This document shows, piece by piece, positions 12,001-15,000 of a DNA stretch of 23,051 nucleotides. The stretch is taken from IMG/VR virus record IMGVR_UViG_2703718769_000008, positions 1 to 23,051 of that record. One strand, 5' to 3'. The number at the start of each line of letters is the position of its first letter. The first letter of the stretch is position 1. A program made the position numbers. The stretch is from a virus. Taxonomy: Duplodnaviria > Heunggongvirae > Uroviricota > Caudoviricetes.

Positions 12001-15000
12001 AATGGTTCGATTTCCAGGTTGAGTGAGACCTTACCTTTGGTTTTCGTGTTCATCACACCTGAAGCGACTTCACTGAGAACTGCGCCGATTTTGGTTTCAA
12101 ATACGCCGCCGTCCAGCTCCCCGATAAATGCCTGCACATCAGTACTGCGTTCGCTAGCCATTTTGCTGCTCCTCATCATATCGACCCTGCAAGGTCGGTT
12201 GGTTTCTCCACAAAACAGAGAAGAACACCTGCGGTGACTGCCGCCCGGATGGATTGGGTTATGAGCCCGTCGTCCGGTGATGCTCTTCTCTGTTTTGTAA
12301 AAAGAGCGGTACCAGCCGGAAGCAAGGGTACAAACTGGTACCGCCAAAGCAGTGGCTGTTGTGGTGGGGTTGTCACTCAGGCGTATGGTCAACCTGACAA
12401 TCCGGTGTCCTCAACGGGGAAATAGTAACCCCGCCATACTTACCGCCGCGCCATTTCGCGGATTACCACAACGCTGAGAGCACTTAGCCAGTTACGGCAC
12501 CACACTTTGTCGCGGCTCCATAAATGCCCTCATCGTTGCACCCTGGTCTCTTCCCAGGCGTCAAACCGAATCGCCACGCTGGTTAGGCGTCTTATCAGCA
12601 TCATCATTGACTTGCACATTCCGGCTACCTGGTTTGTTTGCCCGAGCAAGGAGTGGATTGTCCCCTTTAACGTCCCCAGACCGCTAACGACGCATGTGCC
12701 ATACGCCGTGTTACAACCAAATTTTGTTAGTACCTTGTTTGTTTGTCTGGAAAGAAAGATAAAATGAAGTTGCGCATTATGCAAGTGTTTTTGTTGCGAG
12801 ATATGCAATTTAAAGGGTAATGAAAAGCCACCTTTGGGTGGCTAATTGATGAGGAGGTAAGGGTTAATTGTGTCGCTTAAGGGTTTGTGACTGGCTGATT
12901 AAGACCTTTCCAAAGACCATAAACCGGTGTTCATTTTCGCTGGTAATTCCCCATTCACGGTAAATCTGGTTATCAGAAATCACCAGTAGTTTGTCAGGTA
13001 TCATTTGCAGTCGTTTGACATAAATTTTATCATCAAAACCAAATACATAGATACCATCTCCATCAAACTGATTGATACTGACATCAACGAAGATGAGATC
13101 TCCTGGCTCAATGGTTGGACACATACTGTCCCCACGAACGTTGATAACTTTAATGTGATTGGCTGGCCGTCCGCCAAACATCGATACAGCATTATCAGTT
13201 CTGTATTCAATGGCATGAATCACATCAATGACATCACCGCCCTGGATAAGGCCATTTCCCGCACTGGCACTGACATCCAGCATTTCAATACGGAATACAT
13301 CCTTCACCTGCGCAACATCCTCACTAATACTGTTTTTACATACAGTATTACTTTTGACGTCTGAGGTAAAGAGATCAGCAATATCAACACCTAAGCTCCT
13401 GGCAATATTACTCAGGGCTTGTTCAGTGAATTGTTTCTGCTTACCTGTTTCCAGGCGTGAGATATTCGCCGCATCCACTCCTATTGCTTCAGCGAGATCG
13501 GCGATTTTCATGTTCTTCGCCTGGCGAAGTTGTCTGACTCGGTTTCCTATGTTCATGCGTTTATTACATTTCTTTATTGCGCGTTAAGCAAATCAACTTG
13601 CGCAAAATATTTGCGTGAAATAATATGCTTATCACGCAATATGTGGAGGTAATATGCAATCACCATTACGGAATGTGCGTAAGGCGCACGGATTTACTTT
13701 GCAGCATGTTGCTGCTGGCGTTCAGGTCAATCCAGCGACGCTGAGTCGTATTGAAAGACTGGAACAAATTCCATCTATCGATCTTGCAGAACGTCTGGCC
13801 AATTTTTTTAAGGGTGAAATCAGCGAAATGCAGATTCTTTATCCGGCACGTTTTCAATCTAGCCAAAACCAGAATGGGTTTAAACCACAGGAACAGGAGG
13901 TAAGCCGTGGGTAATCATCACTGGAAAGTGGAAAAACAGCCTGAGTGGTACGTGAAAGCTGTCAGAAAAACTATCGCGGCGTTGCCGGGGGGTTACGCTG
14001 AAGCTGCTGAGTGGCTGGATGTAACAGAGAACGCATTATTTAACCGCCTTCGTGCCGATGGCGATCAGATTTTCCCGCTGGGATGGGCAATGATTTTACA
14101 ACGTGCTGGTGGCACTCACTTCATTGCCGACGCTGTGGCGCAGTCTGCAAATGGCGTCTTTGTGTCTCTTCCTGACGTCGAGGATGTGGACAATGCCGAT
14201 ATTAACCAGCGTTTACTGGAAGTCATTGAACAGATCGGCAGTTATTCAAAACAGATTCGTTCGGCAATCGAAGACGGTGTAGTGGAACCGCATGAGAAGA
14301 CAGCAATTAACGACGAGCTGTACCTCTCAATTTCGAAGCTGCAGGAGCATGCAGCACTTGTCTACAAAATTTTTTGCGTTTCAGAAAGTAATGACGCCCG
14401 CGAGTGTGCAGCTCCGGGCGTCGTGGCGTCGATTGCTTCTGGTTGTGGAGAAACTAACGCATGAACAGTTTAACAACACACTACCGTCGCTCGCAACTGA
14501 TTGCGCTTCCTGTACCGGGTGGAAAAGCGAAGGTGGAGTATTGCTATGCAGTAAATGTACCAGGTGACAGGGAAATTGTAACCCACAGCTTTGCTGAGTG
14601 GGCTGTGGGGGATTTCAACCGGCAGAAGGAGACAGTCCTTTGCGACAAGTTAACCGCTGGTTCAAAGATCACTACGGAGTGCCCGTCAGAGTCATTCGTT
14701 GGGAGCCGGAAACACAACGGGTTATCTACCTCCGTGAAGGCTATGAGCATGAGTGCTTCAGCCCGTTCGAACAGTTTCGTCGTAAATTCAGGGAAATAGA
14801 GGTCGGTCATGAGCACTAAATTAACCGGCTATGTATGGGATGGTTGCGCTGCGTCAGGCATGAAATTATCCAGCGTGGCAATTATGGCCCGCCTGGCTGA
14901 TTTCAGTAATGACGAAGGTGTGTGCTGGCCATCAATTGAAACTATTGCCCGTCAGATTGGCGCGGGGATGAGTACCGTCAGAACGGCTATCGCACGGCTG

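What the first reader, a model, noticed from the sequence alone, without database searches (positions are those of the whole stretch)
13325..13350. Near-consensus LexA (SOS) box embedded inside the CI repressor coding sequence
TAATACTGT-N8-ACAGTATTA (core TACTGT-N8-ACAGTA at 13328-13347) is a 9-bp-arm inverted repeat matching the enterobacterial SOS-box consensus (TACTGT(AT)4ACAGTA) with an AT-rich spacer. It sits in the inter-domain linker codons (SNTVCKNSI) of the repressor gene. A 12-position match of this kind is expected by chance far less than once in a window of this size. The same phage also encodes a LexA DNA-binding-domain-only protein (16891-17217). An intragenic LexA site in the immunity gene could couple repressor expression, or an internal or antisense transcript, to the SOS state independently of RecA-stimulated repressor autocleavage.
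Basis: partly seen in the sequence, partly recalled or inferred. Interest (0 to 1): 0.7.

Follow-up and report, generated by a model that had tools for sequence, protein, structure and literature searches.

The report
Conserved LexA operator inside cI
A strong binding site for the host DNA-damage repressor LexA sits inside a prophage's own repressor gene and has been preserved by selection on the DNA itself; together with a conserved internal start codon it looks like a hidden SOS-inducible gene for a truncated repressor, in a prophage family found in about one in five complete E. coli genomes and in some Shiga-toxin phages.

Summary
TACTGTTTTTACATACAGTA (13328-13347) is an exact 12/12 SOS-box match in the linker codons of cI (12864-13556, minus strand). 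It scores 25.5 bits on a matrix of 16 E. coli operators, above recA, sulA and lexA.

It is not an inert intragenic site. All 130 distinct homologous cI genes (two clades, down to 50% protein identity) keep the box at the same codons. The encoded linker residues change, but box-defining third-codon positions never do. P22 C2/HK022-type relatives (~40%) lack it.

Two further conserved features point to a nested gene:
- A sense-strand TTTACN-17 nt-TACTGT arrangement, the same geometry as TTGATC-17-TACTGT upstream of umuDC.
- An in-frame GTG with a Shine-Dalgarno about 30-40 nt downstream of the predicted transcript start, in 40 of 41 lineages against 8.3 ± 2.5 in synonymous shuffles.

The best reading is a LexA-repressed internal promoter expressing a 144-147 aa repressor lacking its DNA-binding domain. 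Its effect on induction is inferred and of uncertain sign.

The phage mini-LexA is real, but box conservation does not depend on it. No binding or expression data exist, and I found no prior description.

The parts
13328..13347 (.). 20-bp LexA operator (SOS box). Sense (minus) strand TACTGTATGTAAAAACAGTA, covering codon N70 position 3 through I77 position 1 of cI.
   Evidence: Exact 12/12 match, 0/100 shuffles. 25.5 bits on a 16-operator PWM. Present at the same codons in all 130 unique homologues and in 55 unique ENT47670-clade genes. Third-codon positions of codons 70, 71, 75 and 76 are invariant.
13325..13350 (.). The 3 extra bp per arm are specific to this window.
   Evidence: Read directly. 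The flanking positions vary in the homologue alignment.
12864..13556 (-). cI repressor gene, 230 aa: HTH domain, variable linker, S24 autopeptidase domain with Ser144 (GDSM) and Lys181 (VKRL). mEp460/SfII/Stx2a_WGPS2 immunity type.
   Evidence: ORF list, Pfam, phage matches, residue positions.
13365..13370 (-). -35-like hexamer TTTACC (codons F63-T64), exactly 17 nt upstream of TACTGT.
   Evidence: TTTACN/TTTATT at a fixed 17-nt spacing in 41/41 lineages. F63 TTT is one of only 7 degenerate codons with an invariant third position. Weak point: TTCTCT/TTCTCA in the ENT47670 clade.
13342..13347 (-). -10-like hexamer TACTGT, which is the upstream LexA half-site on the sense strand.
   Evidence: Same geometry as TTGATC-17-TACTGT upstream of K-12 umuD. 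Best conserved promoter-like arrangement within +-150 bp on either strand.
13335..13335 (-). Predicted transcription start of the internal promoter, about 7 nt after the -10-like hexamer and inside the box spacer. Inferred only.
   Evidence: Inference from the geometry. No expression data.
13318..13322 (-). Shine-Dalgarno-like GAGGA, 10 nt upstream of the internal GTG.
   Evidence: Anti-SD duplex -6.3 kcal/mol.
12864..13307 (-). Nested in-frame ORF starting at GTG (V84; 13307-13305), 147 aa. It comprises 15 residues, the Ala99-Gly100 cleavage site and the whole S24 domain, with no DNA-binding domain. In most homologues the start is GTG/ATG at codon 87 (144 aa).
   Evidence: Automatic gene callers independently pick this start (P0001, P0098).
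13257..13262 (-). Codons for Ala99-Gly100, the predicted RecA-stimulated autocleavage site (VSASA|G).
   Evidence: The ASAG motif is invariant in the alignment.
12826..12843 (-). Intrinsic terminator just after the cI stop codon; the expected 3' end of both the cI mRNA and the nested transcript.
13577..13639 (.). OR region with 15-bp CI-type operators TTGCG-N5-(A/T)GCA(A/T) at 13577-13591 and 13625-13639. The matching OL pair is at 12770-12784 and 12794-12808. These are unrelated to the LexA box.
16891..17217 (+). Phage LexA-DNA-binding-domain-only protein (108 aa), lying between the Dam methylase and RusA genes.

Best explanation
The palindrome is a genuine, high-affinity operator for host LexA that has been kept by selection acting on the DNA, not on the protein it encodes. 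Its upstream half-site (TACTGT) sits where the -10 hexamer of a weak sense-strand promoter inside cI would be (TTTACC-17 nt-TACTGT), the same layout as TTGATC-17-TACTGT upstream of umuDC.

In a healthy lysogen LexA would occlude this promoter. After DNA damage LexA is cleaved, and the promoter would fire from about 13335. The resulting short mRNA would have a 5'UTR of about 30-40 nt with a Shine-Dalgarno and an in-frame GTG (V84 here, V87 in most relatives), ending at the cI terminator.

Translation would give a 144-147 aa repressor isoform. It lacks the HTH domain but keeps the Ala-Gly cleavage site and the whole S24 dimerisation and peptidase domain.

I infer that this isoform modulates induction by pairing with full-length CI through the shared C-terminal domain. 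Most likely it acts as a built-in, immunity-specific, SOS-gated antirepressor that poisons operator binding once SOS is deep; the operator is as strong as the late-induced umuDC operator.

Shown here: the site, its strength, its DNA-level conservation, and conservation of the internal RBS and start codon. Inferred: LexA binding, promoter activity, existence of the isoform, and the direction of its effect.
For: (1) Operator quality: exact consensus arms; 25.5 bits against 9.6-26.6 for 16 validated operators. 14 homologue sequences carry exactly the umuDC/sbmC operator TACTGTATATAAAAACAGTA, which I verified in K-12.

(2) DNA-level selection: in 41 lineages (<95% nt identity to each other, median 71%) codon 70 encodes T/S/N/P/I/F but always ends in T, and codon 75 encodes N/S/Y/D/H/T but always ends in C. 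ACT71 and AGT76 are invariant and GTA72 is 40/41. Invariant Ala/Gly codons elsewhere have third-position entropy of about 1.9 bits. Only 7 degenerate codons of 230 have an invariant third position, and 4 are in the box. The summed third-position entropy of the 7 box codons is 0.61 bits, against 5.03 for the next non-overlapping window. The conservation pattern (arms fixed, 8-bp spacer variable but AT-rich) is that of LexA recognition.

(3) Depth: the box is present in Salmonella 118970_sal3, Citrobacter phiNP and the Cronobacter ENT47670 clade (50% identity; 55 unique genes). It is absent from P22 C2, HK022/HK75, PhiR47_2 and Providencia repressors at 39-43% identity.

(4) Promoter geometry: TTTACN-17-TACTGT is the best conserved sigma-70-like arrangement within +-150 bp on either strand (mean 7.46, minimum 5.52, 41/41; background -7.1 +- 3.4). 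The umuDC layout scores 8.94 on the same scale.

(5) Internal start: codon 87 is GTG in 31/41 lineages, against 16% GTG at other Val codons. 40/41 lineages have an in-frame start with an anti-SD duplex of -4 kcal/mol or better in codons 80-96; other 17-codon windows have a median of 7% and a maximum of 32%. Synonymous shuffles give 8.3 +- 2.5 (max 17). In the ENT47670 clade the SD is GGAGG-6 nt-GTG (-11.2), and codon 87 has become ATG in its most divergent members. The four fetched box-less relatives lack an equivalent RBS and start.

(6) Gene callers choose the internal start on intact genes. cI's own ATG has no SD.
Against: There is no binding, transcript-start or protein evidence of any kind. 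The -35-like element is weak (4/6) and overlaps conserved Phe-Thr codons, so protein constraint could explain most of it. In the ENT47670 clade it degrades to TTCTCT/TTCTCA, 3-4/6.

The generic promoter scanner did not call it; by the same 9-of-12 arithmetic it would also miss the umuDC arrangement. That TTGATC-17-TACTGT is the functional umuDC promoter is my reading of the sequence plus memory, and I did not verify it.

Part of the promoter score is circular, because TACTGT is conserved as a LexA half-site anyway. The internal RBS could equally be used on the full-length PRM transcript, which would make the isoform constitutive.

The sequences are phylogenetically related, so counts overstate the number of independent events. 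One box-less group (L393-L396) also has an in-frame GTG with an SD 9 codons before its cleavage site. No stand-alone box-plus-CTD genes were found that would prove autonomy. The direction of the isoform's effect (antirepressor or RecA* decoy/protector) is unresolved.
Confidence: 0.5

Rival explanations
1. The site is a real LexA operator, but it works as a roadblock or attenuator for RNA polymerase coming from PRM or an establishment promoter. LexA bound in the linker lowers full-length cI mRNA in healthy cells, and its removal during SOS raises cI expression, buffering against induction by mild damage. There is no internal promoter, and the internal RBS is used, if at all, on the long transcript.
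For: The operator is strong and lies about 220 nt inside the transcribed region. The -35-like element is weak and is worse still in the ENT47670 clade. cI's own start looks leaderless, so expression is probably tuned at several levels.
Against: This does not explain why an RBS and start codon are conserved 30-40 nt downstream of the box, nor why the four fetched box-less relatives lack an equivalent site. It also does not explain the fixed 17-nt spacing to TTTAC or the invariant TTT63. From general knowledge, dimeric repressors at a single intragenic site are usually poor roadblocks, and intragenic LexA sites are generally found to be transcriptionally inert.
Confidence: 0.15
2. The main ligand is the phage's own LexA-DNA-binding-domain-only protein (16891-17217), made during lytic growth. 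It binds the box, and host SOS boxes, in a way that RecA cannot reverse, for example to shut off cI or the nested gene after commitment to lysis.
For: The protein keeps the LexA recognition-helix residues. All ten non-redundant phages in the phage collection that carry this cI also carry it. GIL01 is a precedent for a phage-encoded LexA homologue acting on phage promoters (title of PMC6182141).
Against: Only 20 of 59 divergent box-bearing loci with at least 6 kb of rightward flank have a homologue within 10 kb, yet all keep the box. Phage cdtI has the mini-LexA with a box-less e14-type cI. The protein lacks LexA's dimerisation domain, so high-affinity binding to a dyad site is uncertain.
Confidence: 0.1
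3. The LexA-controlled internal promoter is real, but its product is a regulatory RNA derived from the 3' part of cI, like the svsR sRNA reported at the 3' end of the cI gene of prophage NC-SV, rather than a truncated protein.
For: PMC12803456 reports an sRNA at the 3' end of a lambdoid cI gene and leaves open whether it has an internal promoter. A terminator hairpin directly follows cI.
Against: The RBS and in-frame start are conserved far beyond synonymous-shuffle expectation, and the start codon is retained through a Val-to-Met change. C0293, the reference used to define svsR, has no notable similarity to this cI's 3' end: score 24 there against 29-35 elsewhere in the window. Rfam finds nothing in cI. 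I could not establish that NC-SV carries this type of cI.
Confidence: 0.08
4. The box represses an antisense promoter whose transcript runs rightward through the 5' half of cI, PRM/OR and into cro. SOS would then produce antisense RNA against cI and/or CI-independent cro expression.
For: The palindrome offers a TACAGT -10-like hexamer on the other strand too, and the region is AT-rich.
Against: The best antisense arrangements average no more than 3.7, against 7.46 for the sense one. Their -35 positions fall in the hypervariable linker; in this window that position reads CCTCAC. Nothing conserved was found on that strand, and the generic scan found nothing either.
Confidence: 0.05
5. The conservation has nothing to do with LexA. 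It could be a recombination 'linker' sequence at the boundary between the N- and C-terminal modules of mosaic repressors, an mRNA hairpin, a protein or codon constraint, or simply a chance inert site.
For: The site lies at a domain boundary where lambdoid repressor modules are exchanged; relatives share the C-terminal domain but have different N-terminal domains. The arms could pair in RNA.
Against: The conserved positions are exactly the LexA-contacted arms, with a variable AT-rich spacer. That is not the pattern of an identity island or of a hairpin: there is no covariation, and the stem does not extend beyond the box (A7 faces A/T/G/C at position 14). The amino acids change while the box bases do not. 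Chance is excluded.
Confidence: 0.04

Closest known systems
umuDC (and sbmC) LexA operator and promoter of E. coli
   Same: Same 20-bp operator class. 14 homologues carry the identical sequence TACTGTATATAAAAACAGTA. Same layout of a -35-like hexamer, 17 nt, then the TACTGT half-site, followed by a short leader and a gene for an S24-fold protein with a short N-terminal arm and a RecA*-dependent cleavage site.
   Different: Here the whole unit lies inside, and in frame with, another gene (cI). The product is the C-terminal domain of a phage repressor, not a polymerase subunit. Promoter function is unverified.
LexA-repressed phage antirepressors (Tum of coliphage 186; Gifsy-phage antirepressors, PMC3121763)
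   Same: Host LexA, not only RecA-stimulated repressor cleavage, gates prophage induction; a LexA box controls a phage protein proposed to inactivate the repressor (the Tum example is from general knowledge).
   Different: Those antirepressors are separate genes unrelated to the repressor, and their repressors are typically not RecA-cleavable. Here the candidate is an in-frame truncated copy of the repressor itself, and the repressor keeps an intact S24 cleavage apparatus.
Hex of phage 434 (PMC3564112)
   Same: A second protein made from the immunity locus that modulates RecA-dependent repressor autocleavage and so sets the induction threshold.
   Different: Hex is a distinct ORF 3' of, and partly overlapping, the repressor gene. 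It is co-transcribed from PRM, is not LexA-controlled, is not a repressor fragment, and it inhibits induction.
IS50/Tn5 inhibitor protein Inh (general knowledge, not checked here)
   Same: An N-terminally truncated, in-frame isoform made from an internal start, which lacks the DNA-binding end and is thought to poison the full-length protein by forming mixed oligomers. The element is also touched by LexA regulation.
   Different: It belongs to a transposase, not a repressor. As I recall, LexA there acts on the full-length promoter rather than the internal one.
Intragenic LexA sites found by genome-wide binding studies in E. coli (general knowledge)
   Same: A canonical LexA motif inside a coding sequence.
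   Different: Such sites are generally treated as transcriptionally inert and are not expected to be conserved at synonymous positions across genera. This one is.
e14 prophage SOS induction in K-12 (PMC11228462)
   Same: Related prophage backbone with the same ymfL neighbour; LexA-dependent induction of prophage genes is reported there.
   Different: e14's repressor YmfK is a different immunity type (only a 39-residue S24 match) and has no box. The putative LexA boxes listed for e14 are weak, with HI 15-21.

Membership tests
Enterobacterial LexA operator (SOS box) | 20-bp dyad TACTG(TA)5CAGTA with CTG-N10-CAG core | tested here: met
   Exact TACTGT-N8-ACAGTA with an AT-rich spacer.
Enterobacterial LexA operator (SOS box) | Matrix score within the range of experimentally established operators | tested here: met
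   25.5 bits against 9.6-26.6 for 16 operators from PMC3009722. Homologue boxes score 18.6-28.7, and 14.7-23 in the ENT47670 clade.
Enterobacterial LexA operator (SOS box) | Conservation at orthologous positions beyond coding constraint | tested here: met
Enterobacterial LexA operator (SOS box) | Overlaps or abuts a promoter that it represses | tested here: inconclusive
   A conserved TTTACN-17-TACTGT geometry like that upstream of umuDC, but the -35 is weak and no transcript data exist.
Enterobacterial LexA operator (SOS box) | Bound by LexA in vitro or in vivo; target derepressed in SOS | not testable with these tools
   Needs EMSA or footprinting, ChIP and expression assays.
RecA-cleavable CI/LexA-type (S24) repressor | N-terminal HTH, linker, and C-terminal S24 domain with a Ser-Lys dyad and Ala-Gly cleavage site | tested here: met
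   Pfam HTH_3 and Peptidase_S24. Ser144 in GDSM, Lys181 in VKRL, and ASA|G at residues 97-100, invariant in the alignment.
Nested in-frame truncated isoform (internal-start protein) | Conserved in-frame start codon with a ribosome-binding site inside the longer ORF | tested here: met
   40/41 lineages against 8.3 +- 2.5 in synonymous shuffles. GTG at codon 87 in 76% against 16% background. ATG in the most divergent clade members.
Nested in-frame truncated isoform (internal-start protein) | The isoform is actually produced | not testable with these tools
   Needs a western blot, mass spectrometry or initiation-site ribosome profiling.
LexA-controlled phage antirepressor module (Tum/Gifsy type) | A separate antirepressor gene preceded by a LexA box | tested here: not met
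   The candidate product is encoded inside cI and is a fragment of the repressor. No other site of 14 bits or more exists in the window.
LexA-controlled phage antirepressor module (Tum/Gifsy type) | The product binds and inactivates the repressor | not testable with these tools
   Inferred only, from the shared C-terminal (dimerisation) domain.
Known RNA families (Rfam), including 3'-derived sRNAs | Match to a curated covariance model in or next to cI | tested here: not met
   No Rfam hit in 12400-13700. C0293 is not similar to the cI 3' end.

The most novel reading that the evidence does not exclude
A prophage repressor gene carries its own antirepressor nested inside it. A LexA-gated internal promoter and start codon express the repressor's C-terminal domain alone, and this isoform heterodimerises with full-length CI to switch the prophage on once SOS is deep. 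That would make a self-contained, immunity-specific, two-key (LexA plus RecA*) induction switch, conserved across Escherichia, Shigella, Salmonella, Citrobacter, Klebsiella and Cronobacter prophages, including Stx2a-converting phages.
Probability: 0.3. Interest if true: 0.88.

Novelty: new variant of a known kind. Interest (0 to 1): 0.78.

Why it matters
The textbook picture of lambdoid induction has one SOS input, RecA*-stimulated self-cleavage of CI. The known alternative is a separate LexA-controlled antirepressor gene. This locus suggests a third design in which both inputs converge on one gene, with the second hidden as an in-frame nested gene that annotation pipelines cannot see.

The immunity region is common. 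A place covering at least 80% of the 1.6-kb cI-cro query is found in 1035 of 5426 complete E. coli genomes. It occurs in Stx2a- and Stx2k-converting phages and in the Shigella serotype-converting phage SfII. A LexA-gated step could therefore affect how antibiotics that trigger SOS drive Shiga-toxin phage induction.

The hypothesis can be tested cleanly, because synonymous mutations can destroy the operator or the internal start without changing CI. More generally, it is an example of a transcription-factor site inside a coding sequence that is demonstrably under selection, in contrast to the usual view that intragenic sites are inert.

Tried and rejected
1. **e14 literature.** The window shares ymfL with e14, but e14's repressor YmfK is a different type with no box, so the K-12 SOS/e14 papers do not explain this site.

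2. **Generic promoter scan.** Nothing was found near the box. I then scored aligned homologues with a simple sigma-70 matrix; only the sense-strand arrangement stood out, and no conserved antisense promoter was found.

3. **Met92 as an internal start.** Rejected: the codon is GTA/ATA/GTT/ATT in most lineages and has no SD.

4. **Mini-LexA as an obligate partner.** Rejected by the co-occurrence counts.

5. **svsR/C0293 sRNA at the 3' end of cI (PMC12803456).** No detectable similarity in this cI, so the link is unproven.

6. **Rfam.** Nothing in cI.

7. **Stand-alone box-plus-CTD genes as a natural experiment.** The 147-aa hit (P0001) is a contig-end artefact. The 144-aa hit (P0098) is an intact full-length cI on which a gene caller chose the internal start.

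8. **RNA-hairpin and recombination-linker readings.** Rejected on the pattern of conservation.

9. **Literature.** Nine full-text searches found no description of a LexA box inside a cI gene or of a LexA-controlled truncated repressor. The library does not cover most subscription journals.
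Full report
**1. The observation**

The window reads TAATACTGT-TTTTACAT-ACAGTATTA at 13325-13350. The 20-mer TACTGTTTTTACATACAGTA at 13328-13347 matches TACTGT-N8-ACAGTA with no mismatch. It is the only such site in the window, and none of 100 dinucleotide-preserving shuffles produced one. With two mismatches allowed, chance gives about 0.67 sites, so it is the exactness that is improbable.

The site lies in a 230-aa minus-strand ORF (12864-13556) with an N-terminal Cro/CI-type HTH and a C-terminal Peptidase_S24 domain. 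It falls in codons S69-I77, between the two domains. The gene is flanked by 15-bp operators of a different sequence (TTGCG-N5-(A/T)GCA(A/T)) on both sides, by a divergent cro and CII-like gene, and by an intrinsic terminator just after its stop codon. It is therefore the immunity repressor of a lambdoid prophage.

The immunity region is that of phages mEp460, SfII, PhiR47_1, Stx2a_1447/Stx2a_WGPS2 and phiSTEC1575-Stx2k. A place covering at least 80% of the 1.6-kb query is found in 1035 of 5426 complete E. coli genomes. It is not the e14 repressor. YmfK shares only a 39-residue S24 match and has no box, although the neighbouring ymfL is shared.

**2. How good a LexA site is it?**

I built a symmetrised matrix from the 16 E. 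coli operators listed in Table 4 of PMC3009722. The window's site scores 25.5 bits. Leave-one-out scores of the real operators run from 9.6 (polB) to 26.6 (umuD, sbmC), with sulA at 20.1, recA at 19.0 and lexA at 17.9. The next best site anywhere in the window scores 13.9.

**3. Is it conserved beyond what the protein needs?**

I collected homologous cI genes from species-representative genomes and from IMG/VR. That gave 239 loci, 130 distinct nucleotide sequences and 41 lineages less than 95% identical to one another (pairwise nucleotide identity minimum 0.64, median 0.71).

Every one of the 130 sequences has CTG-N10-CAG at the same codons. The arms are fixed and the 8-bp spacer varies but stays AT-rich, which is the pattern of LexA recognition. 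Fourteen sequences carry exactly TACTGTATATAAAAACAGTA, the umuDC/sbmC operator, which I verified in the K-12 genome.

The surrounding linker is the most variable part of the protein, yet the box bases do not move:
- Codon 70 encodes T, S, N, P, I or F but always ends in T.
- Codon 75 encodes N, S, Y, D, H or T but always ends in C.
- ACT71 and AGT76 are invariant, and GTA72 is 40/41.
- By contrast, invariant Ala97, Ala99 and Gly100 have third-position entropies of 1.88, 1.87 and 1.92 bits, so synonymous sites are saturated in this sample.

Of 230 codons, only 7 degenerate ones have an invariant third position, and 4 of these are in the box. The summed third-position entropy of the seven box codons is 0.61 bits, against 5.03 for the next non-overlapping window and a gene mean of 1.24 bits per codon.

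The box also occurs at the same place in Salmonella phage 118970_sal3 (83.5% protein identity), Citrobacter rodentium phage phiNP (69%) and Cronobacter phage ENT47670 (50%; TACTGTAGATACATACAGTG, 21.6 bits). It is found in all 55 distinct genes of the ENT47670 clade. It is absent (best site under 9 bits) from the P22 C2-type, PhiR47_2, HK022/HK75 and Providencia repressors at 39-43% identity.

A chance or inert intragenic site, a pure coding constraint, an RNA hairpin and a recombination linker all fail to predict this pattern. The hairpin reading fails because there is no covariation and the stem does not extend: position 7 is A while position 14 is any base. The recombination-linker reading would predict an identity island, not fixed arms around a variable spacer.

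**4. What does it control?**

A generic scan finds no strong promoter near the site. Scoring all 41 lineages with a simple sigma-70 matrix on both strands, the single best conserved arrangement within ±150 bp is on the sense strand. It is TTTACN (13370-13365), 17 nt, then TACTGT (13347-13342), which is the upstream LexA half-site. Its mean score is 7.46 and its minimum 5.52, against a background of −7.1 ± 3.4.

The K-12 umuDC upstream region has the same geometry, TTGATC-17 nt-TACTGT, followed by the rest of the operator and a short leader. It scores 8.94 on the same scale. That this is the functional umuDC promoter is my reading plus recollection, and I did not verify it.

The spacing to the box never varies, and TTT63 is one of only three other degenerate codons in the gene with an invariant third position. 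The caveats are real:
- TACTGT is conserved anyway as a LexA half-site, so part of the score is circular.
- TTTAC encodes a conserved Phe-Thr.
- In the ENT47670 clade the hexamer is only TTCTCT/TTCTCA.

The best antisense arrangements average no more than 3.7 and depend on hypervariable positions.

**5. A conserved internal translation start**

About 40-50 nt downstream of the first base of the box there is an in-frame GTG preceded by a purine-rich SD. It is Val84 in this window (13307-13305), with GAGGA 10 nt upstream, and Val87 in most relatives.

| Measure | Observed | Comparison |
|---|---|---|
| Val87 codon is GTG | 31 of 41 lineages | 16% GTG at all other Val codons |
| Lineages with an in-frame start plus anti-SD duplex ≤ −4 kcal/mol at codon 87 | 73% | next best is Val95 at 39%, also upstream of the cleavage site |
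| Lineages with such a site in codons 80-96 | 40 of 41 | other 17-codon windows: median 7%, maximum 32% |
| Same measure in 200 synonymous-codon shuffles | 40 observed | 8.3 ± 2.5, maximum 17 |
| Same measure at codon 87 alone | 30 observed | 5.0 ± 2.0, maximum 12 |

In ENT47670 the site is GGAGG-6 nt-GTG (−11.2 kcal/mol). In the most divergent members of that clade codon 87 has changed from Val to Met, GTG to ATG, so it has kept its start-codon identity. The four box-less relatives I fetched have no equivalent site. One box-less group (L393-L396) does have one, which I leave unexplained.

Automatic gene callers independently chose this internal start. They did so on truncated contigs (P0001, 147 aa) and, more tellingly, on intact full-length genes (P0098, 144 aa, 8 contigs). 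cI's own ATG has no SD and sits 6 nt after a TGTAAT hexamer, so it may be translated leaderless, as λ cI is from PRM (inference).

**6. The model**

The elements occur in this order: a −35-like hexamer, 17 nt, a −10-like hexamer that is also a LexA half-site, a predicted start near 13335, a leader of about 30-40 nt with an SD, an in-frame GTG, an ORF encoding 144-147 aa, the cI stop codon and a terminator. That is the anatomy of a small SOS gene nested in frame within cI.

Its product would lack the DNA-binding domain. It would keep 12-15 residues upstream of the Ala99-Gly100 cleavage site and the whole S24 domain, which makes it architecturally like UmuD.

I infer that it pairs with full-length CI through the shared C-terminal domain. 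Because the operator is as strong as umuDC's, expression should come late, only when LexA is deeply depleted. That fits a commitment or antirepressor role better than an early protective one. The opposite sign, a decoy for RecA* or a Hex-like protector (PMC3564112), is not excluded, and the internal RBS might also be read on the PRM transcript.

My estimates are about 0.9 that this is a selected LexA operator, about 0.5 for the nested SOS gene as described, and about 0.3 for the antirepressor function.

**7. The mini-LexA**

The 108-aa protein at 16891-17217 is a LexA DNA-binding domain with the recognition-helix residues retained and no cleavage or dimerisation domain. All ten non-redundant phages in the phage collection that have this cI also have it. 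So do phages with other repressors, including cdtI, whose e14-type cI has no box. Among divergent box-bearing loci with at least 6 kb of rightward flank, only 20 of 59 have a homologue within 10 kb. It may well bind the box, but the box's conservation does not depend on it.

**8. Comparison with what is known**

The site meets the sequence-level definition of an enterobacterial LexA operator; binding is untested. The system works like the LexA-gated antirepressor modules of coliphage 186 and the Gifsy phages (PMC3121763), but it is not a member of that family. There is no separate antirepressor gene, and the repressor keeps its own cleavage apparatus.

It resembles IS50 Inh, an in-frame N-terminally truncated inhibitor, in logic only. 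It resembles phage 434 Hex in being a second product of the immunity locus that tunes RecA-dependent induction.

Nine full-text searches found no description of a LexA box inside a cI gene or of a LexA-controlled truncated repressor. The library omits most subscription journals, so prior description cannot be excluded.

**9. Limits**

Everything here is comparative and computational:
- The sequences share ancestry, so counts are not independent events.
- The LexA matrix rests on 16 sites.
- The sigma-70 frequencies were entered from memory.
- No transcript, binding or protein data were available.

Noticed in passing
window 16891-17217 (+): A phage-encoded LexA DNA-binding-domain-only protein (108 aa) between a Dam-family methylase and RusA. 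It is widespread in mEp460/SfV/SfII/Stx2c/cdtI-type phages and would be uncleavable by RecA*. Its targets and function are unknown.
   Followed up: partly
related loci, e.g. L260:1476-1495, L261:1208, L266:3000, L271:1212 (6-9 kb to the right of cI): A second recurring strong LexA-like box (CACTGTTTATATTTACAGTA, 21-23 bits) in about 18 divergent loci. In L260 it overlaps the first codons of a 350-aa DNA methyltransferase ORF (451..1503, minus strand). The window has no equivalent.
   Followed up: partly
window 13563-13568 and 13556 (minus strand): cI's ATG has no Shine-Dalgarno and lies 6 nt after a TGTAAT hexamer, with TTGCTT 17 nt upstream. This suggests a PRM that makes a leaderless cI mRNA, as in lambda, and would explain why gene callers prefer internal starts.
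   Followed up: no
window 13275-13277 (codon D94, GAT) and 13545-13547 (codon G4, GGA), minus strand: Two further codons with an invariant third position across 41 lineages, outside the box and the -35-like element. Unexplained.
   Followed up: no
L393-L396 (IMG/VR; 252-aa repressors with a different N-terminal domain): Box-less relatives that nevertheless have an in-frame GTG with an SD (-5.5 kcal/mol) 9 codons before their cleavage site. This may be a constitutive short isoform, or chance.
   Followed up: no
window 22372-22445, 22450-22521, 22825-23024 (+): Two tRNA genes and a full-length match to the sRNA family STnc100 (132 bits) near the right end of the window.
   Followed up: no
window 21035-21054: The second-best LexA-matrix hit in the window (AACTGTATTTAATAACAAAA, 13.9 bits; only one good half-site), in an intergenic stretch upstream of the ORF at 21136-21477.
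   Followed up: no
window 12770-12808 and 13577-13639: The CI operators appear to be 15-bp TTGCG-N5-(A/T)GCA(A/T) sites, two at OL and at least two clear ones at OR, with a third degenerate one around 13598-13615.
   Followed up: partly
literature: PMC12803456: An sRNA (svsR) has been reported at the 3' end of the cI gene of the lambdoid prophage NC-SV of E. coli NC101, with its biogenesis (internal promoter or processing) left open. I could not establish whether NC-SV carries this type of cI.
   Followed up: partly
window 17623-18432 (+) and 15747-16241 (+): A KilA-N-domain protein (possibly antirepressor-like) and a PerC-family regulator in the early right operon. Neither has a LexA box upstream.
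   Followed up: no
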